From Amoebophrya sp. A120 (Eukaryota > Protista > Dinoflagellata), in the NCBI GenBank assembly GCA_905178155.1, contig CAJINV010000003.1, positions 11,929,426 to 11,993,425 on the forward strand: 64,000 nucleotides of DNA. The letters run 5' to 3'. Position 1 is the stretch's first letter, and every line of letters begins with the position of its first letter. The position numbers were made by a program, and so were the translations under genes. The notes under the pieces were generated by a model. The model saw only the letters and a program-made list of their open reading frames with translations. It was not told where the DNA came from and made no database searches. Below, one piece after another: positions 1,723 to 62,700 of this stretch.

Positions 1723-2577
1723 ATGGTTCATCATCTCTTCGCTCTTTTCGGCGCCTCCTTGGGCCTCGGCTTCTGGAGCTGGTGCAGCCTGATTTTGTTC
1801 TCAACCTTTCCCGTGCATGCGGTCCAATTAAAGAAAGCCACGAACGCCAGCGGCCCGGCGACGGCAGCCTCGGACAGTACTCATCTCGATTGCGAAGCTT
1901 TTTTTTCGAGTCCCGACGTCACGGAACGTTCAAAATTGTTCTACCTACGCGACAAGGTATTGGCGCACGATGATTTTGACCAGATCCAGACGTGCCTCGA
2001 GCGCTACAAGGACGACGTCGACGGCGGCGAATTTAAAGTCTGGTGGCCGGACTATGTATCCAGAAGATCATGATAAACTGTGTATAGTGTCAGTCTGGGA
2101 TGTTGCACATGAATATCAGCCGACAAAAATGCATAGGCACGACACTTTTCATGCCGGTGGATATGCTCTGTAGGAGCCTCTCTCTTCTTGCGCGTTTTCG
2201 TGGCGTACTTTGCATGACAAGTTTTTTTGTATCATGCGAGGCAGACCATAGTTTCTGACGTTGCTCATCCAGCACAGAAGTTGCACTAACGCACATTCTT
2301 TTATTTTCGCGGATAAAAGTTCGCCACCCTGGATGATCTTTACTATCAGGCGACGGCGATTGTGCAGGTCCTCGTAAAGCTGCACGCCGAGGAGCCTGGT
2401 TGCTGCAACATGCCGCGAAGCGCAGGAACTGGAAGTAGCGGCGGCACAGGAGAATTACAAACGGAGGTGATGGGCCCTCTTCAACTACAACAAGCCCGGT
2501 CGGTACAAAAACAGCGGTGCGAACTGAAGGAGAGAATTTTGGAACGGATCCGCACGATGGAGCGAGGTGGCATATGA
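1723..2577 (+). CDS. Hypothetical secreted protein, 2 exons (about 1723-2056, 2321-2577)
   Basis: ATG is followed by a hydrophobic signal-like segment (LFALFGASLGLGFWSWCSLILF). The GC3-rich coding frame resumes in phase after the TATCC...GGATA element at 2057-2315. Confidence 0.55.
2057..2315. mobile_element. Introner-like intron (weak TIR TATCC...GGATA)
   Basis: Ends are TATCCAGAAGAT / ATTTTCGCGGATA. The direct repeat is not conserved, but removing the element plus 5 nt restores the frame. Confidence 0.5.
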
Positions 2578-3261
2578 TCCAGAAAAAAAACTGGGGTCTA
2601 GTCTAGGTTTATGTAGTCAACATCTTCCACAGCAGTTGCACTAGGAGGACTATCACGTATGGCTTGGCATGCCAGACGACCTACCGCGAGAGCCTCTCTT
2701 CACACTTTAGCCTCCCTGCGAGTCGAGTTTTTTCTGTAATACTATGCGAGACAAACAACAAGGGATCCAAAAAAGCAACACCATAGCTAGTTTTTTTTTC
2801 TGGATACGATCTAAACAACGATAAATTTGTCGCGGTGGCGCGCAGGACCGCTCCTACAGAGATAAACGTCATTGTCTGGAAAGCGCTACGCATTGCAAGA
2901 ACATCGCTCGATTCGCTGGGTTTAGGCAACTACTATTCATTTTTGAAGCAAGATTTGCAATGCTTAAACGGTAGTAGCATCAACGTCATGTGCACCTTGC
3001 CGACGATGGTGGTTCATTTTTTGTGATAGTGCTGCCGCGCATGTTTGTCGTGGAAAATAAAGACGATTTTTGCTTTGCATGCGCTCCATTGCTTTTCATG
3101 CGCACGATAACGCAGAATACAGGAGAGTTATTGGTCATTCTCATACTTCGTTATCGTTGGGAATCACTGCAGAATTGCATTCACATGAAGACACACAAGC
3201 GTTACAGCTGCATTCCAGATCCAGACAAATCATCGATGTTTTTTGCACAAAACTTTGATAA

Positions 3262-14531: not shown

Positions 14532-16820
14532 ATGAACATGAACAACATGAACTCGCCCATAACCCCTCGCTCGAAGTTCCTCGAGTACAAGTCCCTTGTC
14601 CAAGACGATGCTTCTTTTTCCCGGCGATACTTCGTGCCGCCGAATCCGAAACTTTCCGGCAACAACGGGGTGCCGATAAACCTCCGCTACCACACGGATA
14701 ACGTCACGGACGTGCGGTGGGTGTCGGACTTTGAATGCCTCACCTGCAGCATTGACTCCACGTTGTGCAAGTGGAACTTGGTGGAAGCTAGTGAAGCAGA
14801 TAATGAGAACGGAGCCGGATCGTCTTATCCGAATAGTCCAACCGCGGTTTCCTCTCCGGACTCAGCAGCCTACTTCGGAGCCGGCGGTGGAGGATTGTCG
14901 CCAGAGAACAATAACAGCAATCCGCTTGTTGGTGGTACTATGGCTTCTCTAGGGACTAATAACAATCAACAAACGAGTAACTCAGCCGCGGCGCAGATAA
15001 ACCTCGTCCCGGTGAAAACGGTTTCTGACGCGTCGGCAGAAGGTGTCTACTGCGTGGACGTGATGGGGAAGACCATCGCGACTGGGTCGAGCGGAAAGCA
15101 GCTGAAATTATACGGGCTAGACGAGCTGGATTCCCTTGCGAGTTTGGACACGGAATCGGCGGTTTACGCCGTGCGGTTTCGCGACCCACAGTTCCTGGTT
15201 TGCGGCACGAAACTGGGCTGTTGTATGTTTTTCGACCCGGCGAGCGAAGCGTGCATCTCGCAGATCGAGGGGCTGCACAAGTCCGTGTTGCAAAGCGTCG
15301 ACTTGTCGGAGAACAATGGGGTGCTGACGGGAGGGAGTGATGGTAATTACGAATTGATGGTCATGGAAATGTTTACCGGGAGATGATTTACAAGGTGAAG
15401 AAGTGTGCGTTTGCTCTGTCTTCGCTGAGGAGACATGCATTGTATCTGTTCGCAAATTTTGCACCTCTTTGTACTGACGCAAGATGATAGCAAAAAACCC
15501 TCAAGGTAAAATCTACCTCGTCGACCCTCGTGCGCAGAACTGGTCGCCGGCGAACTTTAGCTACGTGGCAGTTGAAAAAACCGCGATTTACGCCGTTCGG
15601 TGGTGCGCCAACCCGAACTATTTTCTCTCTTCCGGCGACAATTACTGCATTTCGCGGTGGGACGTGCGCAAAATGTCCACGCTCTCGCGCCGCCGCGGGG
15701 AGCAATCCGTGGTGACGAACTACTTTGGGCACAGCTCGGACGTGCGCTGTTTAGAGATGCTGGGCGAAGATTATTTTGTGTCCGGCACGGCGGACGGGTC
15801 GCTTCGGATCTGGCCCGTGGACGAGGTCGGGGCGATTCAGGACACGCTCGTGCAGAACGATTTCCAAATCGAGAAGGCCGAATCGGACCGTGCGGAGATC
15901 GAAGTCAACGTGGTCGCCCACGCGCACAGTGAGCCGGGGCGGAAGAAGGTGCAGAAGAACCTGGAATTACTCCACGATTTGTACGACCGCACGTTTGAGC
16001 TGCAGGAAATCTACAGCGAGAGGTCCGTATCAAATGCAAAAATGTCTGGGTCTGGAAACTTGTGATGCTGTGTGGCGTATCATGAGGAGGCGACAATTGC
16101 TGGCTCAGCATAGCAAGCTTCTGAGCTTCTAAGTGTTGCCTATTCTGCATGACAAACTACGTTTCTGCATGACAGAAAAGTAGGGCTCTTTGGTAATGTG
16201 CATGACAGAATTAAGAGTCATGCCAGACAAGCATGACAAACTTGCATTCTTCCAGACCCAGACACTTTTACTTTTGATAGTCCGCCTTGCAGTGTCTCCA
16301 AGCGACCTACCAGCTGGATGCGCACAGCTCTATCAAATGTAAAAATGTCGGGGTCTGGAAGATTCTGAGACCTGCCATGCATGTTTTGCATTGGCCATGA
16401 TGTCTGTGGTGCATGCCCTAGCATCACGGATTTTTTGAGGGCTTCGCGATGCCTACTCCGCATGACAAATGCCCTCTCCGCGTAGCAAAAATTGCATTCC
16501 CTTTGCTGCTCATGCAATGCAGATTTTTTTGGAATCCAAATTCAGCATCACAAGTTGCATCCTTCCAGACCCAGACACTTTTACATTTGATAAGCTCGCT
16601 GGTGTGCGGATTGTCGGCGAGGAAGTGTCCGCAGAGCAACCACTGGAGAATCCTCACCTCCTCGGCCGACCAAACGGTGAAGCTGTTTCGCTTGGCAAAC
16701 AAGCTAGACAAAAATCGGCATGTCCGGTGGGTGACGCAGTACAGTTCCACGCCGGCCTACGACAACTTCGGATTTCGCGACACCATGGGAAGGCACGACT
16801 CGCTGACCCGGGTGTACTGA
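14532..16820 (+). CDS. WD40-repeat protein (exons 14532-15342, 15506-16027, 16285-16330, 16598-16820; about 533 aa)
   Basis: WD motifs HTDNVTDVRW...TCSIDSTLCKWN, GHSSDVRCL...VSGTADGSLRIWP, HSSLV...ILTSSADQTVKLF. One GT-AG intron and two introners; summed exon length is 1602 nt, in frame. Confidence 0.9.
16028..16279. mobile_element. Introner, ~30-bp TIR, perfect 5-bp direct repeat GTCCG
   Basis: GTCCG|TATCAAATGCAAAAATGTCTGGGTCTGGAA...TTCCAGACCCAGACACTTTTACTTTTGATA|GTCCG. Confidence 0.95.
16331..16592. mobile_element. Introner, ~30-bp TIR, perfect 5-bp direct repeat AGCTC
   Basis: AGCTC|TATCAAATGTAAAAATGTCGGGGTCTGGAAG...CTTCCAGACCCAGACACTTTTACATTTGATA|AGCTC. Confidence 0.95.
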
Positions 16821-25246: not shown

Positions 25247-26475
25247 GACCGACTTCAGGAGTTGGGAAGGAAGGAATTTCAGTATGCAGAGCACCACTTT
25301 TCCTTTTGATATAGGATTTACGCCCCCGTAGTTTTCTTCATTTTCCGCGTCAGTACAGCTTTTTCTCTATTGCAGCCGCTTTCCTGGTACTGCGACTGCC
25401 ATAACCGTTTTCTCTTTCATCTACTGTTTTGAACGTACTAAAATGAGCTGCAGTTGTGGTTTTGCAATGTACGGGCGGAAAAAAATATCACGAAGATTCA
25501 GTGAGATGACCACTCGTCTCAACGACCGGGTGGGAACGAAGTGCAAAACAACTGCTACATTCTTATACTTCCACTTTTTTGTAAAGCTCAGTGTAATTCT
25601 GCTTCTCTCTCTCTCTTTCAAATATCAAACTTCTTTTCGTACTTCTCATGCATAGAAATTGTGGTGCCTTTGCCTTATCATTAAAGAGGTTCATTCGGGC
25701 TTGTTCCCACCACAAATCAATAAAGTGTATCACTGGTCCACCAACAAGTTTTCCAAAAATTGCAGGGGACCACACGTGAAGTCGGCCTGTGCTTTATCTG
25801 TTACTTCTTAACTGCTTCTACATCAAATAAAATTAGAAAAAGCACTACTCAAAAAGCTTTTCTCCCTTCTGAATCGAACCAACTTCAAGTGCGTACTTCC
25901 CCACCGTGAATAAAAGAAGAGCAAACTCTTTCATTTTTCTAGCCTGTCAGTTGCATAACAAGAAAAAATGCGAACGTCGTTGTGGACGATAAGGCCTGCT
26001 GGAATGAAGAAATCAAACCAAGTCCGAAATAATTCTCGTTCGCGTGCTATTTTCGTCACCTCGCATTCGTAGGTAAGAATCCGAATCTTCTGTCGGGGCT
26101 GCTTGTTGGAAGTAGGCGAAGTCGTCGACTCGCAGTCGTTTTGTCGTCCTCGATTCGCAGCTTGGTACGCTTCCATCGCTCAAGAAAGTGTAGTCCGGCC
26201 GAATTGGAATTTATCATCGCAACAACAATGTTCATGTGCAGTTGTACGACAGAGCGCATAGTAAGAATTCGAGTATAAAGGAAGATTTTTGATGTTCGGC
26301 GCTAGAATGTAGTTGTCGCTGGTGGTTCCAGTGAAGCTACTACATCAGTGTTACTTGAAAAATGAGCAATCGCCCGGAAGTAGTACGAGGCTTTACTAGG
26401 ATGCCATCTTTGTGGAGTAAGTCGCTCCTGTAAGTAGTTCTACCTGTTTCGATATCTTCTCAGACGTTGATCATA

Positions 26476-39400: not shown

Positions 39401-39599
39401 TTAAGCTGTGGCCGGCGAACCAACTATCGCTAGGCGCCGTGCTCAGTGATAGTCAATTCGTGTGAGAAGTCGCTAGCCCGAGCAGTTAAAAATAGTATTT
39501 AGTGGGGCCACCGACACCGAGAGGCCTTAGACTGGGCTGGCAGTTTTTTTGCTATGTCGCGCCAAAAGCGGCCAGCAGTGTCAGACCCTGTAGAGCGTT

Positions 39600-46200: not shown

Positions 46201-46601
46201 GGAGAATAAATCAGCAAATAAAAATATTCTTCATTCAAGCGAAGAGAAGACGGATCGCACCTGTCCGACCACAACCTTTTCTGCTACGGCGACGTGGTTT
46301 TTTTTCCGCCGCGCTGTTTCGGATATATAACGATAAGCGTAACAACAAGCACGCAAGTTATAGTCGAGAATCTCCCAGGAAAGGAGGATTGTCGTGTGCC
46401 CAGCAGAAAGACTATGTATTGCAAGAAAAGCATCGCTATCGTGCTAGTAGACATTGCATGACTGACAAACTTTTGCTTGAAGAACAAAAATGGAATTTGT
46501 CATGGAGATTTAGGTATTAGTCTAGACCTGTCATGCAAGATTGCGACTCCTTCTCCTACGAGCGCGATACTTTTACACTGCATAGAGACCGATCTTCAAG
46601 A

Positions 46602-49600
46602 ATGCCTCGCCCGACGGACAACGACAACTCAGGGGAAGCCCGTATGCAGGTCTCAAGTGGGAAGAGTTGCGCTTTCAAGATGAAAATGGTAATTGAAACG
46701 AAAATGAAAAATGTACATATGTACATTTTTCATTTTATGTACATTTTTCATTTTCGTTTCAATTACCATTTTCATCTACTGAACCTATGCAACTATCTAT
46801 TGAAGAAGAAAATGATCAGAGCAAGCTAACCGGGTGATCGTCATGGATACAGTTTTTGTGTCACCTTTTCGTTAAAAGCGAGCGAGAACTTTGATTGAAG
46901 ACCCATTTTGAAAAAGCTCGCAATTCTCAACTTGAGACCTGCATACTCGCCCGATCGAGAAAAACCGTGGTGCCGAAAATATGCCACGAAGAAAATGAGT
47001 CAACAAAATAAAAGCTTGCTCGCGAATTTGGTTTTATCTTTTTGTGCATCTGAGGACTATTTCTATCGCGTTCGCGATATGTTCGATTCTCATTCTGAGA
47101 TGCTTCTTGCGCTGTCGTTTGAGTGCAAAAAAGTGCATGATTCCTGTGGACTGGGTTTCGCGACCACGACGAGGACCACAAAGTATGCAGTTTTTAGACC
47201 GATGGGAGAAGTAGAGAAACGATGATAAAATATGTAGTCACGACTGCACCGTGAAAAGCAGCTATTGCAGCTTCATGCACCATTGTAGACTCAAAGTTCT
47301 GTGGTGATACAGGCGATTTGGGCTGAAATACGATCCCCCACAGGTCGTTCTGGAGTACCTGGACCCTGTATCACAGGAATAATGGTTAAGAGAAGCGCGA
47401 TCACCACAGTTTCAGGTGCATCACAGGTGTTGAAATATGCATCGCTTCCTTTCGTATGTGGATGGAAGTTTTTTGAACAAAGTTGAGGGCCAATGATATT
47501 CTCTCTTGGTGATCGTGCTTTTGAATGCCTTTCGACAGGATAGCGGAGCAGCGGAAAACTATTTCACCGCGTCATGGGACTCAGCAAGCTAAAGCCAGGT
47601 AAAAATCTGTCGCATTGCAGAAGACACCAGAAGAATTGTTGCATCCATTCGAAGTAGAAGAAGGCCACGACTCGGCCATGATCGCGGTGCGCATGCACAC
47701 GATACTGCAGAATTTAGATAAATCTCTTGCAGATTCTTATTTTTTTCTCGCGACGGTTGTTTGAAAGTAGAATATGACTTAATCGATTTCAAAAACTACA
47801 GATACCGACCCGGTAAAAGTCGCTTTGAAGCTGAAAGAGAAAAACGAAGAGTACCTCAGCGACGACAAGGTGGCAATAGAACAGCTGGTACTATGTTTTT
47901 CTCTTCCACACTGAATGTTAAAAAGTAACTTCTTCAAAGTTACCGTTCTGCTTCCGCAAGCGTCTATTTCCGTTTGTATATATACGGAATCTACAGAGTA
48001 GGACCGTTATGCCGTGTGCTTTTCGTGCTGTAGCACGAGCAGCAGCTGTGCAGTGTCAAAAACGTCGCTCATACGAAGATCAATACGACCCAATCTAAAC
48101 ATTCGTAAAAACGCGCTTCAGGTGTCGCTGATAACCAAGTTGCAGGCGAAGCGCAAGCAGCAGCAGCAGCCGCACGCCGCAACCGAGGACGCCACAACAG
48201 CGGAGTCCACGTTAAACCTAGGACGGACAAGGAGCGAAAGCAGTTATCTGTCGCAAGTGATGTATCTTCAGAGTCAGATGGTGATGAAATTTTCGTTCGT
48301 CCACCACCTGGTGAGGTGTTGTGGTTTTCTTGGACGGAGGTTGAAACTTGCATTTGAAAGTGTTTATTTGCCACTCCGCAGGGGCTAGTAGTTTAGCGCT
48401 TTGCAACAGGGTCTTGCAGATGCAACCGCGGTCACTGCTTACTCGTACACCCATGTACTATCGATATGCAGTACCAGAAATTCAATCCCTGCTGACTCTG
48501 ACGTGTTTGCAGTGCATACCAGTTCAGTAATGCCGATTTCTGAGGACCCCGCGATCGTGCCGCCTCTGACTATGCAATTATGAAAAAGCTGTGATATTTT
48601 TACAGGACGATGCAATAGATAAGTCGGTCGCAGCAGAATATGCAACACACATTTGGCGGTTTCGGTGTGTGTAGCAGAGCCGGGCTATTCTTGTGTAATT
48701 TTTTCTTGCGTGAACAACGTGAAGCTTGTTCTAAATACCGCTTCACTCACGACCACTTCTGGGTGGGCAACAAGTAAGACGACTTTTTTTCGTTTCTTGC
48801 ATGCTCCTGCTGCTTGTGCTCGACCTCGAGAACTTCATCCGTCACTAGAATATACGTATTAAAGTGCGTCCACGTTATTTATAGCACACACTTTTTCTCT
48901 TCCATACTGACCTCCAGTAATTTGAAAGCGCTGAACGACAAGTCCAAGGAGCGCACCATATCGAAAGGAAAAATCCCCCTTCCCCATATCGAAAAGGAAA
49001 TCTGTGATGCTGGATTTGCGTACACAAATCAGATTTGTCTTGCAGTAGAGGACTGCACGCAGTTCGCCAGCCGAGATAGGGGCCTCTTGGTGTAGGCGCC
49101 TAGCATGGTAGACGGCTGTCGTGTAGTCCTTACAGCATTACAAATCGCCTGCATAGTGTGGCAGAGAGCCTGGGCGTGTCTTCTCGCAAGACAGACAGAA
49201 TTTGTGGCCACAAATCTGCGTCACAAATATGCAGAAGATACGTTGTCAATATGGGGAGGGGGGATTTTTCCTTGCAATACACCAAGGAGTTTCTGAACGA
49301 CCTGCCACCACTCGAGCAGCTAGACCACGCGCACCTCTCGAGCAGTTCGTTCGACCGCGACAACCGGGACGCGCAGCGCACGACAGGCGCCGGTACAACT
49401 AGCAACCGACAAATCTCGGGGGGGCAGCTGCGGGGAACCTCCAACGCGGTCCCAAGTGGATCATCTGCGCCGAGACCAAACGCCGGCGGCACCGCGCGGT
49501 CGCCCGAGCACCAGCAGCGCGCGGTTTCCTCGGCGAAGCAGCAGAGTATGTCTCGAGAAAAATTCTCCTCCTAGCGAAGCATACAGTAAAGTATAAATCC

Positions 49601-50820
49601 TGTCCACAAGCCTCGTAGTACTCGTAGTAATTGTTGTCTGACATCATGATCATGACTCAGCTCGTTTTTTCAACAGAATCTGCATCACGACAGATTCCGC
49701 CCGAAAAGTACCATAATCAAAAAGCTGTGCTCGTGCTCCTCATGTTGGTACAATTGTAACCACGAACCAAGATTAGATAGCTCTTTCTACTTTCCGAGGT
49801 GCTGTAGCTGAACCACGGGAGGACGATTAGCGACAAAACATCAGCTACCCCAGTTGACTACAACAGGATCATAGTCTTTGCTTCTGTAGTATCAAGTAGA
49901 ACCAGACTGACAATTTATGTTGTGTAGGTAGTAGTTCTTCCACTTGAGGAGAAAGACCACGCGATTGCTCAGAAGAAAATGCATTGCAGAATCACCTAGT
50001 AAGGGAGAATTTTTTTCCGTTGCACACTGCTGTCACCTGGCTCTTCGCCCTCCAATGCGGTGACGACAAACCCGCGGAGCCCGACCGCGCGAGACCGGAC
50101 GATCAGCCAGCAGCTGAACGAGATCGAGGGCCAGCAGCAGGGCCAACAGAGCGGGCATAGCAGAACCAGGTCCGCCGGGTCCCACCCGGTGCCGCCGAGT
50201 CCCACGGGGAGCAAGGATTCCAAAAACATCGGGTTGGACGGGTACGATTACGACCACTTCGACCTCAACAAACTGACCAAGGAGGAGGTACAAAAACACA
50301 AAGACGCGATGACGAAGCACTTCGAAATATCAAAATGAAAAAAGCCCCCGTTGGCCCATACTCAATCTGATATTCATATTTGTGTAGCACCAGCATTATA
50401 ATTTGCGTCGACGTACACAATAAATCCTTGGTTATTATTTTGCAAGAAGGCATTGAGTTTTTGTTTTTCTATTTTGTCGGGTTGTGAGGCTGTGCAGTAA
50501 GTAGGCTCCTAATGCTAGCTATTTGGCATGGCTAATGTCGACCTAACAGGAGCAAAAATCTCTTGCAAAATGTTTGTGCAATACAGAAGTTTTTTTTCTC
50601 AGGATTTGCCTTTGCGATTGCGTGCACAGACGGCGCACCACAATAGTTCGTCTTCTAACGAGTGTGGGGGTGGGGGGATTTTTTGTCAGAATACTAAGCG
50701 AACCAGATCAAGCCGGGCGATCCCAGGTACGTGTACGACCTGCGCAAGGACTTTCGGGAGTCGCCGCAGTTGGTGAATGACTGGGACAGCGAGGAGAGTA
50801 TCGACTTGCCGAGGATGTGA
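46602..50820 (+). CDS. CEP19: CEP19-like centrosomal/ciliary protein, 11 exons, about 385 aa
   Basis: N-terminus VVPKRFGLKYDPPQVVLEYL...GKLFHRVMGL...KLKEKNEEYL...EQLVSLITKLQ. C-terminus DLNKLTKEEVQKHKDAMTKHFE.NQIKPGDPRYVYDLRKDF. Two GT-AG introns (47599-47801, 47888-48121) and eight introners; exons sum to 1158 nt, in frame. Confidence 0.88.
46643..46945. mobile_element. Introner with a perfect 16-bp TIR
   Basis: TATGCAGGTCTCAAGT / ACTTGAGACCTGCATA; flanks GAAGCCCG / CTCGCCCG. Confidence 0.92.
46678..46777. repeat. 100-bp AT-rich perfect-arm palindrome nested in an introner
   Basis: AGATGAAAATGGTAATTGAAACGAAAATGAAAAATGTACATA ... TATGTACATTTTTCATTTTCGTTTCAATTACCATTTTCATCT. Confidence 0.95.
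46980..47309. mobile_element. Introner
   Basis: TATGCCACGAAGAAAATGAGTCAACAA / TTGTAGACTCAAAGTTCTGTGGTGATA; joins PK|RFG. Confidence 0.8.
47369..47542. mobile_element. Introner (weak TIR)
   Basis: TATC...GATA ends; joins LDP|GSGKL in frame. Confidence 0.65.
48245..48518. mobile_element. Introner
   Basis: TAT...GCAA / TTGC...ATA; direct repeat GCAGT/CCAGT. Confidence 0.75.
48571..48906. mobile_element. Introner, perfect direct repeat CTGAC
   Basis: CTGAC|TATG...CATA|CTGAC. Confidence 0.85.
48959..49279. mobile_element. Introner, ~31-bp TIR, perfect direct repeat CACCA
   Basis: CACCA|TATCGAAAGGAAAAATCCCCCTTCCCCATAT...ATATGGGGAGGGGGGATTTTTCCTTGCAATA|CACCA. Confidence 0.95.
49547..50026. mobile_element. 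Introner (3' end ACA instead of ATA)
   Basis: TATGTCTCGAGAAAAATTCTCCTCCTAG / CTAGTAAGGGAGAATTTTTTTCCGTTGCACA. Confidence 0.75.
50328..50693. mobile_element. Introner
   Basis: TATCAAAATGAAAAAAGCCCCC (nearly identical to the left end at 23190) / GGGGGATTTTTTGTCAGAATA; direct repeat CGAAA/CTAAG. Confidence 0.85.
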
Positions 50821-50846
50821 TCATCATCTCAATCAACCAATACAAC

Positions 50847-53661
50847 TTAATAGCGGCGACTGCACCAGTCTTCCAGTTGGATATTACCTCTTTCTTCAAA
50901 CAACTTCACCGGCGGTGGCTCCTGTACTACCTCCTCGGCTCTCGTCGCAGGTGCGGCTGCAGATCAAGCTTTTACACTACTACTACACATTTGATCTTTT
51001 TATTTGCGCAACAGATGAAAAGGATGTGCTGCTGCATGTGGTTGCGCTGCAATGTCGCTACTTGTGGCGTAACCTACAGTGCTGAGGAATCATAACATGA
51101 TGGCTGCTACAGTACGCGCTGCGATTTTTTCACATGAATCGTTATACTGCTGGCATAGGGTATCTATCATCTTTTGATACTTCGTAGTTGGGATGCTGGT
51201 GATGCTACGTAGCAGAAGTGGAGCATTTGCAACTATTAACAGTCCGGTACTACTAGTTGTGTTTTTCGCAGTAAAAATTGTCACATGAGGCTTGTTTGCA
51301 CCAGGCAGGCTCCACCTGCAGCTCGTATTCTTGAAGTGCTTTAGGTGGATCTTACTCTCCTTGTCTGTAATCCTGTACAGCATTTTCAGGTGGTAGTACG
51401 GTAGAAGTCGTTTATTTGGTACTAGATGATAACGGCCCGAGCCCGACGGAGATGGTTCTTGAGCAAGCCTCACTACAACATTTAGATGTGATGTATGAGG
51501 ACTGTTGAGAGAGCAGAGATCCCGCCAATGCCAAATTGCTGGATAGCTTTTATACTTTTTTCTTGCCACGGCCATTATCATTGCGTACCGTCTTGACAGC
51601 GACAGCCTTTTTTTTGCTACCACTATCGGATCTCGACGACGACGCGACTAAAAAACCACACCACCACTTTGCTCCACCGGCGCACACTCCGACTCACATT
51701 ATTTGTGGCCTATGTAAATCGATGAGATGAAAGTGATAATATCATGTCAACAAACGGTCGAAACGCGGGCATTGCAGGAGCACAGATCTTTAAGCACTAG
51801 AATTTACAAGCAGCAGGGACAAATAATTGTGATTTTTGTGCTGCGAGTGCGAGTCCTCTAGCCACGCCAGTGAAAGACTAGATACGCGATGTTGCATCCG
51901 GGAGATGGAGCAGGTCATCTTTTTCGTAGTACTGTAGTTGAATCATTTGAACTTAATCTACAAATAATTCGAATGTAGCATATACGTTGATGTGGGAATA
52001 AAGAAAAAGCAGACATTACTTACCTGCTGCTGTTGCACATGAAAATTGTTTACGAAGACGATAAGAAATGCGAGATAAATTTCAGTCTAAAAACTAACCC
52101 AGAGCATGATGCCGTGAAGGTGAGAATTATGCGCAGGAGGGACGAAGTCAAAGGCATCCTCGGCTTCCCGTGACTGTTCTAAGGCTAAGCAGCCTGCGTT
52201 CTGTTTTCATATGTGAAGTCTCACTCTCAGTGTCACAAAACGAACCCTCGTGGTTTTTGTTTTCGTCGGTCCAGTTGGTCGATTCGGAAATTCCAAACAC
52301 AAATTTTTGTTGTAAAGAGATATGATATGGCCGCGTTATCCAGGTTTCGTTTTATTGCAAGACCATGATGAATCACTCCCTTGATCGAAAGTTTTTACGG
52401 CAGGATTAATGGCAACCGATCCAAATGCGATCGTTGCGTGCCGTAATAAAGATCTGCTTATTTTTTTTGTGGTCGTCTGCACCATGAGACACAGTATCGT
52501 TTACGATCTTTCGTATGCCGCGTTTTCGCTTCGGAGATCGTGATGAGGATTATGGCCTTGTTGAAAAAATCTGTGAATGATTCCTGTAGCCGCTACAGCA
52601 CTCCGTGCGAGTCCAATGAAAATGACAATTATGCTGCTAGATACCCTTCGCATGATTCCGTTCATGGTAGGTTCTTGCTCGTGCATGAACATGAAGCTTT
52701 TTCGTACAACACGCAGAAGTAGTAAATACTGCTTTCCTCGTTCGCAACACCGATTCGATCTTTTCGCACTTCGTGTAAATGTCGTTGTAAATAATTTTTG
52801 CAGACCCCAGATCGGGGTAGTTCTACATGCTCAGCATTGAAAGGCACAGCAAGATACTCGCCTGACATATTTGTCTGTTAATACCGTCGTCGTTCTTTAG
52901 AGGATCGTTGATATAACGTCTAGCAGATAAAATCGTCCTCTGTCGTTGTACACCGGGCCGTAGCGTACAGACAAATTGACTCAATACCCCGTAGGTGGAG
53001 CTTTTTGACATTCGTTTTCGTAGGGTAGTATAATCCTTGTCGTTTTAGTTGTTGGGGATATTGCTCAGCAGAAATGGATCCCGCAAGAGCCGTCTGAATT
53101 TTAGTTAAAAAAATATGATTTCTTGTGGTGCGACAAACAGGAAACTTTTTTGTTCTTCTCCGCCCTCAGGGACTACAGAGAACAACCAAGTAAAACGCAA
53201 AGTCAGCCAGCTCGAAGAAGATTTTTCTACCACGACGTCGCCGGTCGTGTGCTAAGTAGCTGTAAAGCAAATCAGCGGTAAATCGTAGCGGAGAAAAAAT
53301 ATACTACAGCAATCGCTTTGCCTGTGAAACCAAAAACGAACCCGAAATCATGCCGATCCAGAAGTCTTCCATTGCGCGCGTCGCAAAGACTGCGGCCCTG
53401 GCGGTCCCCCTTGGGCATTTTCGGCGCGAAACTTGGTCCTGCCACCACGTCTGAACGGGCCGGAAGCGATACTTCTCCCGCCGGATTCACCGAAGTGGAT
53501 CGCGTCGTATGAGCTGTGCATTGTAGTGCCGATCTGGGAGGTCTGAAGGATTTTTGCAACAAGAACTCGAAGAAGCAATGCTGGGATAGCAACCCGAAGC
53601 CGAACCGCTTGACCTCTGTCATGCGTGTGCTTCTCCTCACGCAATCGCACACGGAAATCAA
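50847..53661 (-). CDS. Probable multi-exon hypothetical gene on the minus strand (structure unresolved)
   Basis: Several coding-like minus-strand segments (about 53300-53650, 52860-53040, 52022-52090 with TTAG/GTAAGT borders, 51300-51530, and 50847-50965 ending ...LEDWCSRRY*). Confidence 0.35.
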
Positions 53662-55317
53662 TGTTCACTTGTCATGGTAAAAAGCGATTTTTAAAGGTTG
53701 ATGCGAACAAGAGCGCGGTGTTGCATAAACCGCTCAGCATGACTTTGATGTCGTTCTTCGCAGCTTAGCACTGAAGAACACTCGTCAACATCAAGACGAA
53801 TTTTCAGCACCACAGCTTTCCAGAGCCGGACCACCTTATTGCAGTGCATACCTGCGTCATGCGGAAGCGAACAAGAAAGTATGGGGGGACGCTATTCCAG
53901 ATTTCAACCTTACGGTAGTTCCTAAAATCCTTATATCAGAATATTATTTTTGTCATGCAAAATATTTTTCTTCTTTTTCGGTGAAGAAATGGCGGCTTCA
54001 AACCCAGTGGCTGCTGAGCTTCGGTGCGGGTTTTTGATAGTGTGTGCATGGGCAGAGCACAATAACTCTTGCCATCGAATGTTCGTTTTCGGTGAGTCGA
54101 AGATTATCCCGGCGGTGGGTCACTACCTCCTATCGGTCGACGAACATAAATACCGGTTGCGGTGTCGGGGAAAAATGAATATGGGATGGCGGCTTTGTTG
54201 TGAGTCGGGGAGGTGGTGAAAGAGGTGAAGGAAAAACCAGATGGAGCTGCAGTTTATGACTAGTAAGAATACAAATACAATAACAATACACAAACTCAAA
54301 CTCCACACGAAGCACTATACACAGAGGCTGCAGTCGCAGCTGCAACACGCAGGCGAGCAGCAATCCGTGACAAGCTGTTTCTTTGAACCTGAGAACCAAC
54401 GTTGAGCCTGAGAGCCAACGACAGACAGAAGAGATTCGGAAAAGCAAAAGCACTTGTCGGCGCGAATGTACCTCGTTTCGAGGATAGTTGTAGGAGCGCA
54501 AGCGCGAAACAGTGCGCGGCTGCTATGATTTGTTGTGGAGCTTTTTGTTCCCCGGTGTAGGCCGTTCCCGTTTTTTTGAATGTCAGTTTCGTCGCAGGGA
54601 TAGCGATAGCCATAGCGGAGGTTGAGAGCGTTTTTTTTTTCTGGCGATGATGAGCGGGCTTTGAGATGGCGAGAGAAATGAGATGATTTTTTTTTTTTGA
54701 TTCCAGCACCCCGGGAGTAGTGTTAGCTCATTACTGAAAGCCGGTCTTTTTGTTTTTTCAATGATGTTTGTGATTTTCCACTTCCCTTGGGAATATCTAT
54801 ATCAACTATGCGAAAGCGCTTTTCAGAATTCAGATTCAGAATTAGAAATAGAATTAGCAATACAAATAGACAGAGAATTATTAGAAATAAACACAGAAAC
54901 AGAAGCAGGCACGTAAGCAAGTATTGTTACTGGTATTAGTAGCAGTATTTCGCATCTTCCTTTTCTTAGTGGTAGAGTGTTACTTTTCTTCTTCTTCTAT
55001 CTCGTGTTATTGACATACGGAGCGTCTGGATCTCATTCACACCCTAAAGCTAAAAACTAAATGGCTATGGCATGAAACAAAGACAAACTCCGACCGAACA
55101 CGCGCGAACGAGTTCGGTAAATGCAGCAAAGAACTGCATCGAACTCTGATGCTGCGTCATCATCTTTTTTCGCTTTTTCTTTTTCATTTTCATAAATTAG
55201 CTGGTGAGGAGAGCTTCGTGCGTCGGTTCCCACTTGGACTTGCACTTGCTCTTGCACTTGCTGTCGCCTACCGAGGTACGTACGCTTTGAGCGCGACACC
55301 AGCAATCCCGTCCGCGA

Positions 55318-56304
55318 ATGCCGACTCCGCGATTCATCTTCCCGGAACTTGCTGAACCCGAGCCGGAACCGGAGCCCTTGAACCCAAAGCGGACAATCAG
55401 CGCGGAAGCGGTCACCAATCGAGCACGGGTTCTTGCCTCCGCAGCGGTTCCCGATACCTGGATTCCGTTTCCCTCGGCGGATACCATCAACAGTTGGATT
55501 GAGGAACGCGTTTTTGAGTGTCAGCGTTCATCTGCCGTTCCGGAAAGTTGGCACACTTGGATTAATAATCGCTTCCGGGAGGTCGGCGGAAACCACACCC
55601 TGCCGGCGTTGGACCTTCTCGAGCGAGAGCGTCGTGACAGCAGGAACGAAGACCATCTGCGCTTGCTGATACGGAACTTCTCACCAGGAGCTGGAGGTGC
55701 GCCAGGGGCTGGAGGTGCGTCGACTGGAGGCACAGAACTTCCCAGGGGCTCGGAGAATTCGGAGCTGGAGTTTCAGCGGCGTACCTGGCAGAGCAGGAAC
55801 CCAAAAATCAGCTTTGAAACTTGGCTCCGATTGAAGAAGAAAGTAGAATCGCGGAGCTCCTCTTCTTCGTCGAGTTCCTCTTCTTCGTCGAGCTCGAGTT
55901 CCTCTTCGTCGAGCTCGAGTTCCTCTTCGTCGTCGAGTTCCTCTTCGTCGTCGAGTTCCTCTTCGTCGTCGAGTTCCTCTTCGTCGTCGAGTTCCTCTTC
56001 GTCGTCGAGTTCCTCGTCCTCCTCTTCGTCTTCTGGCGTTGGGCGCGGTTTCGGCGCCGGATCTGTGTCGACAACTACATCCACGTCAGTATTGGGGCCG
56101 ATTAGTTCTTCCACTTCCACTTCCAGTACCACTTCAACTTCCACCAACGCAAATTATATTCCGTTTGGACCGCTACTAGACCCAAACTGCCTCGACGAAA
56201 GCGAATCCGACGAGGACGACGACGAGGGCGATAGCGATAGCAGTTTTAGCCTGCCCCCTCTCGAGACGAACTCCGGGTGGTGTGATCTCGAGGAAATAGA
56301 CTAA
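55318..56304 (+). CDS. Hypothetical 328-aa protein with a ~60-residue poly-Ser tract and an acidic tail
   Basis: Open ORF with GC3-rich flanks, just upstream of the transposase gene. Confidence 0.6.
   Translation: MPTPRFIFPELAEPEPEPEPLNPKRTISAEAVTNRARVLASAAVPDTWIPFPSADTINSWIEERVFECQRSSAVPESWHTWINNRFREVGGNHTLPALDLLERERRDSRNEDHLRLLIRNFSPGAGGAPGAGGASTGGTELPRGSENSELEFQRRTWQSRNPKISFETWLRLKKKVESRSSSSSSSSSSSSSSSSSSSSSSSSSSSSSSSSSSSSSSSSSSSSSSSSSSSSSSSSSSSSGVGRGFGAGSVSTTTSTSVLGPISSSTSTSSTTSTSTNANYIPFGPLLDPNCLDESESDEDDDEGDSDSSFSLPPLETNSGWCDLEEID
55855..56034. repeat. Minisatellite, unit GAGTTCCTCTTCGTCGTC (18 nt), encoding poly-Ser
   Basis: Directly visible tandem copies. Confidence 0.95.
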
Positions 56305-56762
56305 CGACACACGGGTTTACAGAAGAGGAGGGGAGTCGGTATTCTGCTCTGTTCCTTCACGTTCACCTATTTGAAAACGAAATTGCGTTTGACTTCTTTG
56401 AGTTTGATCTTGTGTGTATTTCGAAACGCATTTGATTGCAGTTCCAGTTCCAGTTGAAAATGCAAACCAGTGTAGATTTGTGGAAAGACGAAAATGTGTG
56501 TATGGTGCTGCTGCTGCTGCTGCTGCTGCTGTGGCAGTGGCTGCGCGCGTGCCTGTGGAAGAGGAAGTGGAACTGCAGCTGGAGCTGTTGCTGGAATTGG
56601 ATGTAGATCTGGTTCCGGACGTGGATGTGGTTGCGGAGTTACGAATTGAAAAAAAAATGACAATCAGGTGGTCCTGGCCGCCGGGGGCCAGTAGCTGCAG
56701 CTCCGTCCTTTTTCAGTGGTTCCGCTTTCACTTCTTCTACCTCCTCTTCCATAGCCGTGCCC

Positions 56763-59700
56763 ATGCCGCCCAAAAAGGAGCTTCCGCATGGATACGACTC
56801 CATGCTGCTGGAGGAGAAATGCCGGCTCGTCAAGTCGATGAACGATATCTGCCGGCTCTTGCAGTGGGCACGCTCCTCGAACCGAGACGAGCAGGACAAT
56901 CTGGGGCACAAGTCCGTAACGCCGAGCGTGCAGTCACTGTCTAAGCAGTTCCTCAAGTGGTGCGAGTCGGAAGAAGATAGTGGAGGAAAAAAAGTGGCGA
57001 AGGAAAGGCAGTACGAGTTTTACGCCCGCTTCTGCTATGAGGCGCGCTTCAAGTTGAATCCGCGCGAGAGCCAGGTCTTTCAGGACGGGAAAAACAACAC
57101 AAGCAGCGCCAGCAGTTCCACAGTAAAAAAGGATGGCGAGGAGTTTGATCTCGGGATACCGGAGGAGATCCGGAAAGATCCGAAAATGATGAAGTTGTAT
57201 GGGCGCTGGTTGTGTGCGCAGTTTCGCGGAACCGGGGCGGAAAGAGGGAAAATAGTCAAAGCATCGATGGGAATGGTCGACGAAATCAAACAAACAAGAC
57301 GCTGCTTCAAAAATAGCGTGCAAGCGTTAGCAAACCACGACTACCGCGGACCCGGGAGTTTGTTGACAACACGGAAACGCGCTGCCACCGCCGATTGTCT
57401 TGACAGCGGTTTGCTGCTGGATAGCCGGAGCCAGATAATCCCGAAGGAACTAAAAAAGACCAGGACTCACTCTTCTCCGCGGGCGCGGCCACAGCCACAA
57501 GCTGAAGCACAACTGCATGATGCAAAAGCAAATGCGCTTCCAATCAATTTCAATATCAATGAAGACCAAGACGAAGCATTGTTTCCAGATCTAAAACAAC
57601 GCCAGCAGCAACAACAACTACAAAATCAAAAGCAAAAACGGCAGCGACAAGACTCCATCTCTCGCGATGTTGTTCCTGCTGCCAGTGCGGCTGCGGGACC
57701 AGGAGTGGGCGGAGGTGCAAACGCATCCTCGAGTTCGGGCAGTTTCTTGCTGTACGACGATGAGCAGTTTCGTGCTGTCGGTGGGCAGGTAGAAGAGGAA
57801 GTACTAGAAGGGGACGACTTTTTTGAGGAAGACGAGTGGAACTACACCTCGGGCACGGGCGAGCATAAGAAGACCACCTCCACCACCCGCGCGCGCCCGC
57901 GTGCAAACACAGCCCCCGAAACCGGCAGTCTCCGACGAATGGGCGCAGACGCACGCGCCGAAGACAAAGTTGAAATCTCCGACGACTGGGTGCAGAAAGC
58001 GTATCACGATTTGAGCGAGCAAGTCGATTTAGCCATGACGGTAGATGAGGACGACTTCGAGTTGGATCACGAGGAAGGTGAGGGCAACCAGACCAGCTAC
58101 AGGGATCAAGTCTTGGAAGACGAGGCGATGGCGTACAAACCGGACCTCCACCCGAGTCTGTTCAGCACATCTATTGTTGTTGCTGCACCGGTATGTAATG
58201 CAAAAGCTAAAGCAGAACCAGAAGCATCGCATTTGCACTAGATCTAGAACTAGTACTAGTTCTAGTAATTATAGTATAAATTGCATGACAAATAATTAGA
58301 GCTGATCTACGTTTACGTGTGCGTCTACGTTTAAATTCTAAAAGTAAATGAAAAACCAAAATTCGCAATCGCATTCGCGATTGCTTTTAGTTTTGCATTT
58401 ACTATGAGTGCGATGCTTTTACTTTTGCACAGGATAAGCGGACGTCTCAGCTGAGGAAGCCCGAGCCGCCCAAAAAATGGCGGATAAGCAGGTCCAGAGG
58501 GAGAACGACCGCATGAAGAAGTGGGTGAAGAGGTCGGAGCTGATATCCTAAGCAAAAATGCCCTCGCTCCATAGCCAGCAACGCTGGCAGCGTTGCAGCT
58601 ATCGGGTGGGGATGTCTTTGCTCAGCATAGCTAACGTACAGGGACTGCTTGCGGTGGGTGATGAGAATGCGGTTTCTGAATTTTGTCAGCGCGACGGCGT
58701 TCCAAATCATCAACCGTTCGAAAGCGCAACAGCAGAATAGCAAAAAGCCAGCAAGCTCCGCCCCGCAGGCGAACAGGGATGCAGGTCTGGACCAAGATGA
58801 AACGCACACCGGGCCGGTGTACCGAGCGGCCGGTATTCGGGACGAGTTATCCGGTGCTCCGGACGGCATTGATGTGGAGTTCAAAGGCGTGTACACCGAA
58901 AACTACACCTACGATTCCGCCAAGAACGTTTTCCACCCGGTGAGCCAAGACAACAAAACCAACTCGGAAAGGGAATACAACTACCCCGCGGAGCCGGGCA
59001 AGGGCGATTCCCGCGACAAGGGGCAGCAACCTGGCAGAAAGCCACGAGTGGTATTCCGAATTACATCGGACGCAACTCCGATGGGAGACTGTAAAGTATT
59101 AAACAGTAAGTGTTCGATGTACCGGTCGGTTGGGACGGGGCGGCATGTTGTCTTCGAGCAGTTCGCACTTGAGTCCATCACCACCGCCGGCAGCTTCGAC
59201 AACATTACGAGAGTGCACAGCCTCCTCCACCTCCGCCTCGCCCATTTGAGTTCCCATTTGTTTTTATGGCAAGCAGCGGATGCTGCTTGCCATAAGAAAA
59301 AGACTTGGGTTTGCATTTAGGTTGAGACGTAGCAAGAAACAGTATGCGTTTTTGTTTTTGTAATGGAAATGGAAATCCTATTCATACTCATACAGGCCTA
59401 TGCCTGTAGCTGGAGGCATAGCTATTTCTAATCCTAAATTAGGCATAGCTATTCCTATTCCTTATCCTATTTCCGAGGCTAGTACTAATTTGCATTGTAG
59501 TGGGCGGGGGGGGGGGGACGGGGGTTGTGCATTCGCATAACAATTTTGGACGACTTGTTCGAACAAGCGTGGCGTGCAGGGATCCCGCTGCCAACGGCGA
59601 GTAAATGCTGTGGAATGCCGGGTTTTATGCCCGAATTCCGCCCGGCATTGATTGGAGTCGCGGATTGCGGAAGCGAGATGGTGAAAGCGCTGCGGGTATC

Positions 59701-62700
59701 TTTTGGAAAACGTGTTTTGCAGCACGCCCGAGACCGATCCTCCCGAAAAGCATTTTTGTCTCAACTTGCAAAACATCCCTCGTAGATAGTGCCTGCGAGA
59801 AGTGTTTTGCAAGGTCGGCCACACAATAAAAAAAGCGGCTTTTGGGTTCGGGCGTGCTACAGGGAATTTTTTTCCAATTCATACACGAGGCTCGTGCTAC
59901 TTGCCGAGGCGTGGCGCATCAAAATGCCCACAGACCTCCAATGGAGTGACGCATACGTATTTTGCCAATTGCATCATATTATCCATTGAAAAAGATAGAG
60001 ACCCAGAGCCAGACCCTCAGGCTCAGGCTCACCCTGTGCCTGTGCAGGGTCTGACTCTGTGTCTCTGAATCGCACTAGCACTCGCTGTCGCGCTCGTAGT
60101 AATTGCAATTCTGCTTGTGCAAGGGGAAGGGGTAGTGGATAGGATGGGATTGGGGTTGGGGAAGAGTAAGAGCTGCTCTTCCTTTTGCGCAGATGTGCAA
60201 GGGGAAAGCTGCTCTAGTACTTGCAGTAGTAGTGCTTGTTGTTGTTCAACAACAAGTGATTTGTTTTATTTGTATTCCCACTACCACCATGCGCCGCGTG
60301 GTGGTAGTACTAGTACTAGTAGCTAGGAGAAGCGCGAGTAGTAGTGCTAGTGCGATGCTTTTGCAGTCCATACACTTGAATAATGCCGGCAAAAGTGCAG
60401 TGCTCTGCATGTCGGCGTGTTTCGGCGAAAAACTCGACAAGACGGTCACAGCGGTCTCCAAGACCATTAACCTCTGGTTGGCCGAAAAATACAACACGGT
60501 TGTGCCCCGCCTTGGGGAGGAGGAGCGGAAGCTCCTCCAGCCGATAGGCGACATCTCGAAACAATTCGAGTTTCACAACCAATTGGCGGACGCCCAAGGT
60601 GTCCTCCGGGCGGTTGACCCCAAGCATGTGCTCCATGGCCACGCCGAGGAGGAGTACAGCAGATTGGCAGACATCGCAATCCGCGACGGGTGGGGGCCTG
60701 CTGAAAAAAAGCAGAGGAAGGTGACGCACTACGTCAGGAGCCGGTGGCTTTCGATCAACAACACCATCAAGGACATCATCCAACAGGCGGACAAGTATGC
60801 ACTGCAACAGTATCGCGCGACCTAGAGCGCATGGTCATTCTCCTATGCTTGCATATGCATTTGCGTTTAGATTTAGATTTTGATTTACTCGCGCAAATGC
60901 ATGGGCATGAGCTTCGCCTCTGTCTTTAGCATTCGAGAACGAGCACGCGTGGGCGTGCGATATTTTTGCACAGGATAGCAAAATTATCGTCACAATTCCG
61001 TTGCTGTACAAGAAGAACAACCTACAGGCGTGCAACAAGGCCCTGCTGTCCAGGGCATACAATGCGGATACCGATCCCAACTATGAAAAGGAAAACGAAA
61101 AGTAGTGCTGCGACAATCCCGCTGGCCGCTGCCCTCTTTCCCACCCCCACCCAATCCCGAACCCAATGCAAAGGCAAAACCAGAAACAAAATCTGACCCT
61201 GAACATGTACCCGTTGCGACTGCAACCACGCGCAGCCACAGTGGCTGTGCGTGGTCACAGTCACGCCAACTTCTCTTTTTGCATTTGGTAGGGTTAAGCT
61301 TGCCGCAGCGCAGGTTTTCGATTTCATAAGAGGTGGTGGTCCTGTATTTCGGCGCTGGACTCGGTTCTGGACTTTGTGACGGAGGCTAGCCGCCGGACAA
61401 TGCGACAGGCAGCTCTTTCTGCGAGTGGCTGCGACACGTACGAGCTGGCGCGGGCCGCCATGGTGCCGTTCACCGACGAGCAGTTTATCCGGCAGCTGGA
61501 GTTGAGTAGTTCGAAGTTCGACTTCGACGGGGACTCCTTCGGCCGGTGTATCTGCGGATACGGCCGGCTGATGAAAGAATTACGAGGCAGGCAAAGGGCC
61601 ATGGAGGAGTACCCGTACGCCCTATTCGGGCTTTGCACGGCGGGAAGAGTCCGAGCAACAGCACAGCGGTTACTTGAGCTGGGCCGGCGGAAAGAGTTGG
61701 ACCGGATCACGTTGGACCTATACGAGGACTTCTACTTCGAGCTGAGCGAGCTGGCAAACAACGCCGATCTCCCGGACGGTCCGGAACCCGACGCGCTTCC
61801 TTCCCTGTCCGAAAACCTGATGGCGGACCTCTGCCCCTTGTTGCATGCTTTGAGCTTAACAAGTCAAGAAGCAGAAGGCCTGAACTCCGAGACGACATCG
61901 GTGAAGCGCGAGGTGAACACGTTGATCGGGTCGGTCATGTCTTCGGCAAGGTATCTTTTTGAGTTTTGTTTTCTTCTATGTAGTAGGGATTCTCATTCTT
62001 TCACGGCCCATGGCCATGACCAAATCGAATAAGCACTACTACTACAGCATGTCCATGTCCATGTGGTGCTGGTGCAGTTCCAGTCCCACTCCCATCGTCA
62101 GTTCCAACCCCGCTATGTCTCTGTGATGCGCGGGGCACTAAGGGTTAGGATGTCCCGTTTTAAAAGTCTTGACTTTGCAACTAAGTTGAGTGAGTCTCGC
62201 CGTCGCCGTCGCCATCTACATCTTGAACTTGGAATTAAATTGAATCAGGTTTTTCATCCGGGCAAACCTGCGGCTCTCCTGGGAACAGTATTTTTTTGCG
62301 TACCAGCGGGTCAGTGCTAACTACGCCACACGGTACGGCAAACACAGGAAGTTCATGCCCGAGGTCGGGCTGGTCCTTTTCAGTGACAACTGCCACGTGG
62401 TGATGGACAAGGACGTGGCGCCCAGAATGTACACCCCGCCGCAGCCGATTACGGGAGCAAAGTCCACTCGGCTTCACTCCTTCGCGGTAGATACAGAAGT
62501 TTTTCGACTACGGCCGGGCGTTTTGCTGGCATTCGAGGTCGACGAGAGGGAGGACTGCCAGTTCCTGGTGCTCGACGTCACCGCGAATGACGCGCTGGTG
62601 TGTGCTGTTGATTGCAACTCCGAGGGGGATTACTTCGTCGACCTCAACAAAACTTCTCTCTTTTCCGAGGTGGTTTTCAAGAAGAACTGCTGGTACGACC

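What the first reader, a model, noticed from the sequence alone, without database searches (positions are those of the whole stretch)
2057..61328. About 35 non-canonical introns follow one rule: TAT...ATA inverted ends plus a 5-nt target duplication
Seen: across seven genes, introns begin TAT and end ATA, with imperfect TIRs up to about 30 bp. Eight have perfect 5-bp flanking repeats (GTCCG, AGCTC, CGATG, CGTGG, GGCCA, CAGGC, CTGAC, CACCA). In the cases checked (e.g. 16028, 16331) no register within the repeat gives GT-AG, yet removing the element plus 5 nt restores conserved motifs. Known: IR/DR introners have been reported in Amoebophrya. Inference: splice sites are defined by the terminal RNA stem rather than by dinucleotides, implying an unusual splicing mechanism that coexists with GT-AG introns in the same genes.
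Basis: partly seen in the sequence, partly recalled or inferred. Interest (0 to 1): 0.8.

Follow-up and report, generated by a model that had tools for sequence, protein, structure and literature searches.

The report
Transposon introns cut by fixed ruler
In a parasitic marine dinoflagellate, dozens of transposon-like introns that ignore the usual GT-AG rule are removed from transcript assemblies at fixed distances from their TAT and ATA end motifs, which would let them insert anywhere without leaving a scar, and a much larger element with the same kind of left end carries a likely transposase that may spread them.

Summary
The additions here are an exact rule and a candidate mobiliser. All 23 non-GT-AG junctions shown in transcript-like contigs fit one register: the intron starts 1 nt before TAT and ends 4 nt after ATA. 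The next-best offset fits 13 of 23; eight junctions have only one possible register. The 2021 paper calls these sites 'variable'. The cut removes element + 5 nt, cancelling a 5-bp target duplication, yet only 5 of 23 tested elements keep a perfect repeat. In-frame GT-AG shortcuts were skipped in 3 of 3 cases. One junction inferred from a loose end breaks the ATA motif. A two-copy segment of more than 10 kb starts exactly at a TAT (53880), is apparently skipped in RNA, and encodes a D-D-CxxH-RW protein with an Amoebophrya AT5 homologue; its transposase identity rests on motifs only. The splicing machinery is untested.

The parts
18737..24951 (+). Twelve non-GT-AG introns in one gene, each N.TAT...ATA.NNNN: 18737-19048, 19382-19638, 19922-20193, 20298-20716, 20814-21300, 21536-21821, 22096-22422, 22475-22783, 22859-23105, 23189-23485, 23618-24337, 24623-24951
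   Evidence: RNA joints in X1/X4, absent in X5; registers; with one inferred GT-AG intron (21338-21496) they give a 708-710 aa frame
46412..50697 (+). Nine non-GT-AG introns of a CEP19-like gene: 46412-46588 (alternative donor 46416), 46642-46949, 46979-47313, 47368-47546, 48244-48522, 48570-48910, 48958-49283, 49546-50030, 50327-50697; two GT-AG introns (47599-47801, 47888-48121) lie between them
   Evidence: RNA joints; 385-aa frame; PF14933 CEP19 E=4e-7 on the last exon
53507..53854 (+). Non-GT-AG intron (GT..TG), single possible register
43774..44046 (+). Intron that is both GT-AG and in the -1/+4 register (G.TAT...ATA.TCAG)
   Evidence: inferred from a loose end in three runs, placed
16027..16596 (+). 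Two young, related elements in a WD40 gene (predicted introns 16027-16283 and 16330-16596) with perfect 5-bp repeats; members of a high-copy family
   Evidence: very high summed contig depth; their joints were not shown by RNA
2056..2810 (+). Predicted introns 2056-2319 (also GT-AG) and 2572-2810
25020..30546 (+). Predicted -1/+4 introns 25020-25188, 26580-26867, 26996-27285, 27428-27689, 29262-29681, 29935-30188, 30271-30546
   Evidence: reading frame and end motifs only; other in-frame solutions exist for some
31389..31904 (+). Two introns inferred from one RNA loose end: 31389-31640 (G.TAT start, but ACT where ATA is expected: an exception) and 31667-31904 (C.TAC...ATA.CAGC, fits; only 5 letters beyond the joint)
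   Evidence: table 7
53879..64000 (+). Left part of a large two-copy element beginning G.TAT; its right end lies outside the window; apparently skipped as one intron of more than 10 kb
   Evidence: X5 depth about 44 before and 77-83 from 53880, contig starts at 53880; X1/X2 contigs leave the genome after 53878 into letters absent from the window
56763..63871 (+). Predicted gene of about 1,640 aa with D (59069), D (59663), CxxH (59963), RW (60742) and a possible E (61874); candidate DDE transposase
   Evidence: Amoebophrya AT5.2 homologue P0001; no Pfam, PDB or confident fold support
58191..61332 (+). Seven -1/+4 introns inside that gene: 58191-58440, 58543-58633, 59205-59543, 59696-59887, 59976-60376, 60795-60981, 61081-61332
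   Evidence: removal of element + 5 nt keeps the frame in 7 of 7 and gives the best alignment to P0001 in 6 of 7

Best explanation
These are Amoebophrya A120-type introner elements, likely miniature DNA transposons that duplicate 5 bp on insertion, and they are removed from transcript contigs in one fixed register (1 nt before TAT, 4 nt after ATA), most likely by a modified spliceosome that reads N-UAU as a relaxed donor and measures the acceptor from AUA, with the arm pairing predicted to tether the two ends. Shown: the register, the removal of element + 5 nt, independence from terminal dinucleotides and from an intact direct repeat. Inferred: 1 + 4 = 5 cancels the target duplication, so a new insertion at any exonic position would be spliced out without trace; transposase-bound ends (TAT-N7-AAA) double as splice signals; the spliceosome, rather than another enzyme, does the cutting; the large TAT element supplies the transposase.
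For: 23 of 23 non-GT-AG junctions fit (20 exact, 3 with one motif mismatch); next offset 13 of 23; random pseudo-junctions fit at 0.004. Eight junctions have a single register. Five of five pre-registered predictions with RNA cover were hit (note, result). Joints are absent from the DNA-like run X5, whose contigs run through the introns. Seven more introns are checked against an AT5 homologue. For the spliceosome: U at +2 is kept in all 23; 4 of the 5 GT-AG introns seen in RNA also begin GTAT or GTAC, so both types share the donor register, and one intron (43774-44046) obeys both rules. A tandem TATGTAT gives two donors with one acceptor. Genome-wide, all nine predominant A120 non-canonical pairs and all nine A25 pairs have T at +2 (PMC7789003 Table S4). 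Nearly all spliceosomal proteins and U2/U4/U5/U6 were found in A120 and U1 snRNA was not. Tunicates process non-GT-AG introns with a modified spliceosome (PMC13326754 abstract).
Against: No call tests the enzyme. Intron positions +1, -1 and -2 are free, which a normal spliceosome does not tolerate (established knowledge). A branch-point-like YTRAY lies 10-60 nt from the 3' end in only 8 of 23 (3 of 23 in a control window). One loose-end junction (31389-31640) lacks ATA. One search hid 171 lower-supported joint rows that may hold exceptions. Contigs drop minor isoforms, the runs are only guessed to be RNA, and the joints come from two samples of one study. One of the 23 junctions (23189) could also be read as GC-AG. 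Three of my seven predictions in the region without RNA had the wrong 5' end (two wrong TAT choices, one indexing slip).
Confidence: 0.55

Rival explanations
1. Same elements and same register, but excision is non-spliceosomal, as proposed for Euglena nonconventional introns: a dedicated nuclease and ligase recognise the paired ends and cut at fixed spacers.
For: Euglena has an analogous, genetically defined code, 5'-N3CDG-/-CH'GN5-6|R, with circular introns proposed (PMC12501133 abstract and Discussion). No AG, free +1 and weak branch signal here. Arm-specific pairing survives repeat decay in 13 of 14. U1 snRNA not detected in A120.
Against: The donor register coincides with that of GT-AG introns in the same genes and hybrids occur, whereas Euglena hybrids are rare. 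Closing pairs are predicted in only 7 of 23 and the G.U/A.C test is inconclusive.
Confidence: 0.33
2. Splice sites are variable relative to the hairpin (the published view), and the fixed register is a local or sampling artefact.
For: PMC7789003 Fig. 3 legend states variability; Fig. S23 legend places repeats 1-5 nt from the sites. One exception here, and 171 joint rows unseen.
Against: Eight single-register junctions in three genes all give -1/+4. Direct repeats of up to 7 ambiguous letters explain scatter in aligner output. Table S4 shows T at +2 throughout.
Confidence: 0.07
3. The elements are excised from DNA (as in ciliate internal eliminated sequences) or the joints are assembly artefacts, not RNA splicing.
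For: Runs X1-X4 are only guessed to be RNA, and most joints carry 'between: not known'.
Against: The DNA-like run X5 holds none of the joined forms and spans the introns. The same contigs join GT-AG introns too, some retain introns at low depth, and the joined forms give long frames.
Confidence: 0.03
4. On the large segment only: it is a segmental duplication or a passenger transposon unrelated to the small introners, and the mobiliser is something else (for example a Ginger-like integrase).
For: Its left end (TATGGGGGG...) does not match the TAT-N7-AAA consensus and has no partner in the window. No RNA contig covers its gene. AT5 holds the homologue yet has 99.98% canonical introns. One A120 family with 5-bp duplication and TA termini was classed Ginger (PMC12130899 dataset).
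Against: The two-copy boundary falls exactly on a TAT and the RNA contig leaves one base before it, in the same register. D, D, CxxH and RW are conserved with AT5. hAT5 elements make 5-bp duplications (PMC12730594), and an 18.8-kb A120 introner family carries hAT5/hAT6 terminus flags.
Confidence: 0.5

Closest known systems
Introner elements (IEs) of Amoebophrya sp. A120 (Farhat et al. 2021, PMC7789003; read: abstract, sections 10, 11, 12, 16, 34, passages, supplement legends and part 3 of 5; figures not visible)
   Same: 8-20 nt inverted repeats starting TAT, seven looser bases, then AAA; 3-5 nt direct repeats; about 240 nt; mixed with GT-AG introns; hairpin proposed to join exons.
   Different: The paper calls splice sites variable or unknown relative to the hairpin, limited introns to 40-1000 bp, and found no transposase in A120. 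Here the register is fixed, and a TAT element of more than 10 kb with a transposase-like gene appears. [quoted passage not shown]
A120 introner families in Gozashti et al. 2025 (PMC12130899; read: passages, dataset file 8 parts 15-17 of 33)
   Same: TIR DNA elements; fam38 noted '5-bp TSD, TA/TA termini'; some consensus lengths of many kb, fam135 about 18.8 kb with hAT5/hAT6 terminus flags.
   Different: In the rows seen, most families are 'unknown' superfamily, splice sites are tallied as scattered dinucleotides, automated duplication lengths run 2-6, and none is finally classed hAT. I did not see all 58 A120 rows.
Euglena nonconventional introns (PMC12501133; read: abstract, Discussion)
   Same: Paired terminal triplets at fixed spacers from the junctions, no GT-AG, MITE origin suspected, coexistence with spliceosomal introns.
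   Different: Motif CAG/CTG with 3 and 5-6 nt spacers and a purine after the junction; here TAT/ATA with 1 and 4 nt spacers, no purine rule (exon +1: 12 of 23 purines), and hybrids with GT-AG introns occur.
Fritillaria MITE-derived non-canonical introns (PMC13326754 abstract; PMC11282704 passages)
   Same: Transposon-derived introns with inverted repeats and target duplications that escape GT-AG.
   Different: They keep preferred dinucleotides (AG-AC, AG-AT) and are handled by a spliceosome with divergent U2AF; here both ends are free except U at +2.
hAT / P / MuDR / Kolobok / Dada group of DDE transposases with C/DxxH (PMC3706591 and PMC4763223 passages); hAT5 subgroup (PMC12730594 passage)
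   Same: D, D, CxxH shortly after the second D, then a long insertion with RW (the RW label for hAT is recalled; the papers give Hermes W319); hAT5 makes 5-bp duplications.
   Different: No profile, PDB or fold match; third acidic residue not confirmed by the homologue; protein much longer (about 1,640 aa).

Membership tests
Amoebophrya A120 introner elements | Inverted repeat starting TAT, then 7 looser bases and AAA | tested here: met
   profile; A-rich positions 11-15 in 18 of 22 at each end
Amoebophrya A120 introner elements | 3-5 nt direct repeat at the junction | tested here: met
   nine perfect 5-bp repeats; perfect in 5 of 23 RNA-tested elements, decayed in the rest
Amoebophrya A120 introner elements | Removed from RNA at non-GT-AG sites | tested here: met
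   23 junctions
Amoebophrya A120 introner elements | Repeated elsewhere in the genome | tested here: met
   shown for some: many divergent contigs pile on 16028, 16331 and 22097; related pairs in the window; not shown for every element
Amoebophrya A120 introner elements | Host is strain A120 | tested here: inconclusive
   motif match, GC 50.6% against AT 48.8% listed for A120, AT5 homologue; no genome held
U2-type spliceosomal introns | GT/GC-AG termini | tested here: not met
   23 junctions lack a GT-AG register; one has a GC-AG register
U2-type spliceosomal introns | Branch point and lariat intermediate | not testable with these tools
   motif count weak; no intron-derived reads available
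Euglena-type nonconventional introns | N3CDG / CH'GN5-6|R signature | tested here: not met
   motif and spacers differ; works alike, not a member
hAT transposase (large element) | D, D and CxxH in order, conserved in a homologue | tested here: met
   the motif is shared with P, MuDR, Kolobok, Dada and IS256
hAT transposase (large element) | Third catalytic E after the insertion domain | tested here: inconclusive
   candidate at 61874 lies in a stretch missing from the AT5 gene model
hAT transposase (large element) | Profile or fold similarity to hAT proteins | tested here: inconclusive
   no Pfam or PDB hit; Atlas leads 0.80-0.81 to FAM200/DUF4371 clusters, below its evidence level; models at pLDDT 41 and 36
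hAT transposase (large element) | Paired terminal inverted repeats and target duplication | not testable with these tools
   right end lies outside the window; no genome held

The most novel reading that the evidence does not exclude
Amoebophrya runs a genome-wide, dinucleotide-free splicing code, N|TAT...ATA|NNNN, whose 1 + 4 geometry is matched to the 5-bp duplication of a previously unrecognised CxxH-type DDE transposase. The autonomous element is itself a self-erasing intron of more than 10 kb, so transposon and splicing machinery together allow scarless insertion at any site, and the cutting is done by a U1-less spliceosome or a new enzyme.
Probability: 0.35. Interest if true: 0.85.

Novelty: new variant of a known kind. 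Interest (0 to 1): 0.62.

Why it matters
About two thirds of introns in this organism are non-canonical and were described as having no clear splice signature and no known mobiliser. A fixed register turns that into a precise, testable code: it allows re-annotation of tens of thousands of junctions, gives minigene predictions (U at +2, 4-nt spacer), and explains why the elements can invade coding sequence freely. It would be a second case, after Euglena, of a ruler-type code built from transposon ends, in an unrelated lineage. The large element offers a concrete candidate for the missing transposase.

Tried and rejected
No genome is held for the window, so no genome-wide scan and no right end for the large element. 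No listed run is on record as RNA. Raw-read run X7 was uninformative: 95 reads laid, 98% running on unlike the window. No RNA contig covers 54673-64000; this is not evidence of silence. Homologue searches for the large element's protein were blank in the search for homologous proteins and metagenome contigs; only the exhaustive search found one relative. The second Atlas search gave nothing. Both structure models were too poor to use, so no fold search was run. My first hand model of that gene used two GT-AG introns; the homologue overturned it. The G.U versus A.C test gave p from 0.004 to 0.59 across eight settings, with a composition baseline of 0.50-0.54, and is treated as inconclusive. Drift towards G at +1 in older elements was not significant (p=0.31). 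An internal CATGACA motif is enriched but present in a minority of elements and on both strands, so it was rejected as a branch signal. The EF-hand gene at 7632 could not be resolved by frame alone. Literature searches for a published register or A120 transposase returned none in listings or in the passages read. Roy et al. 2023 and Henriet et al. 2019 were not read, and figure images, including Figs 3 and S19-S23 of PMC7789003, could not be seen and may bear on novelty.
Full report
Observation. The eight named direct repeats are present, each flanking a TAT...ATA element, and a ninth was missed. Elements with a perfect 5-bp repeat and at least 12 of 20 matching arm positions number 6, against 0 in each of 20 shuffles. 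The signal is real.

Identity. The ends match the published description of Amoebophrya A120 introner elements: inverted repeats starting TAT, seven looser bases, then AAA, with 3-5 nt direct repeats (PMC7789003 section 11; profile). GC content (50.6%) and an Amoebophrya AT5 homologue agree. The class, the TAT start and the hairpin idea are therefore known. One family with '5-bp TSD, TA/TA termini' is also in a later dataset.

RNA evidence. Two stretches were laid, 11500-31499 and 44001-64000. The joint tables showed 27 rows from transcript-like runs and 2 repeat artefacts from the DNA-like run; one search hid 171 further rows. With one joint placed from a loose end, 28 junctions were analysed: 5 have a GT-AG register and 23 do not. 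All 23 fit one register, intron = N.TAT...ATA.NNNN (20 exact, 3 with one mismatch in the six motif letters). The next-best offset fits 13 of 23, and random pseudo-junctions fit at 0.004. Eight junctions have no flanking ambiguity, and their terminal pairs include TT-TT, TT-CA, AT-GG, GT-CG and GT-TG. The rule was derived from the first stretch and written down before the second; the five predictions with RNA cover were all hit. Where G|TAT...ATA|G offered an in-frame GT-AG cut (20298, 46416, 47368) the contigs used -1/+4 in 3 of 3. X5 contigs run through these introns and hold none of the joined forms. The joined frames give a 385-aa CEP19-like protein and a 708-710 aa protein. Against the rule: one junction inferred from a loose end has ACT in place of ATA (31389-31640), contigs hide minor isoforms, and the joints come from two samples of one study.

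What defines the sites. The direct repeat is not needed: it is perfect in 5 of 23 tested elements and differs at 3 or more positions in 9 (this set is the 22 non-GT-AG introns plus 43774). Arms pair better with their own partner than with swapped ones (242 against 189 paired positions, p=0.0002), and this holds in 13 of 14 elements with decayed repeats (8 of 9 among RNA-tested ones), which suggests selection on pairing. However, the three closing pairs are all predicted in only 7 of 23 folds, and the strand-specific G.U test was inconclusive. A tandem TATGTAT gives two donors with one acceptor. So the simplest description is fixed offsets from two motifs with a loose tether, not a perfect terminal helix. 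Because 1 + 4 = 5, the cut removes exactly one copy's worth of a 5-bp duplication, so insertion would be silent anywhere (inference).

Which machine. U at intron position +2 is invariant here and in all 18 predominant non-canonical pairs listed for A120 and A25. Four of five GT-AG introns seen start GTAT or GTAC, and one intron obeys both rules. A120 has nearly all spliceosomal proteins but no detected U1 snRNA. I therefore favour a modified spliceosome (about 0.55) over a Euglena-like separate enzyme (about 0.33). Nothing here tests this directly, and the free +1, -1 and -2 positions and weak branch signal count against it.

A large element. In run X5, depth rises from about 44 to 77-83 at a contig that starts exactly at 53880, the T of a TAT, and stays there to the window end. 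Contigs of X1 and X2 follow the genome to 53878 and continue in letters not found in the window. This reads as a two-copy element of more than 10 kb spliced in the same donor register. It holds a predicted gene of about 1,640 aa. An exhaustive search found one relative, an Amoebophrya AT5.2 protein, which aligns across all core exons (298 identities in 922 columns). Both share D, D, CQLH and RW motifs. C/DxxH after the second D marks hAT, P, MuDR, Kolobok, Dada and IS256 transposases, and hAT5 elements make 5-bp duplications. Seven introns in this gene give an independent test: element + 5 keeps the frame in 7 of 7 and scores best against the homologue in 6 of 7. Limits: no Pfam, PDB or usable fold support, the third acidic residue is unconfirmed, the left end does not match the small-element consensus, the right end is unseen, and AT5 has the homologue without non-canonical introns. 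I put about 0.75 on a DDE transposase and about 0.4 on it being the mobiliser of the small introners.

Novelty. The 2021 paper says splice sites are variable relative to the hairpin and found no transposase in A120. My searches showed no later statement of a fixed register, but figures could not be seen and subscription papers were not read. Verdict: known elements, with a probably unpublished exact code and a candidate mobiliser; new variant of a known kind, interest 0.62.

Noticed in passing
window 53879-64000: Two-copy segment starting at G.TAT, apparently skipped in RNA, with a transposase-like gene and a second ORF (55291-56304) bearing a long serine run.
   Followed up: partly
window 54678-63581: At 17 positions the window reads A where the X5 contig reads another base, with no other kind of difference listed; this looks like assembly ambiguity written as A.
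   Followed up: partly
window 46412-46588: Alternative donors 4 nt apart at TATGTAT, upstream of the predicted start codon; X1 shows one, X2 and X4 the other.
   Followed up: yes
window 46678-46777: An internal palindrome of about 100 nt (89% identity between arms) inside intron 46642-46949.
   Followed up: no
window 59265-59294 and 59399-59420: Two short TAT...ATA hairpins nested inside intron 59205-59543.
   Followed up: no
window 32486-32890, 34756-35131, 39728-40132: Three diverged copies (67-73% identity) of a GC-rich block of about 400 nt, with further repeats at 32156-33371 and 33613-34018, and a 295-codon frame at 38513-39397; possibly another large mobile element.
   Followed up: no
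window 30574-31390: Coding tandem repeat of about 255 nt, three copies at about 77-81% identity, within one exon.
   Followed up: no
window 10092-10245 and 10319-10472: Direct repeat of 154 nt at 92% identity in non-coding sequence.
   Followed up: no
window 17430-17940 and 23930-24170: Intergenic repeats hit by several divergent contigs from elsewhere in the genome.
   Followed up: no
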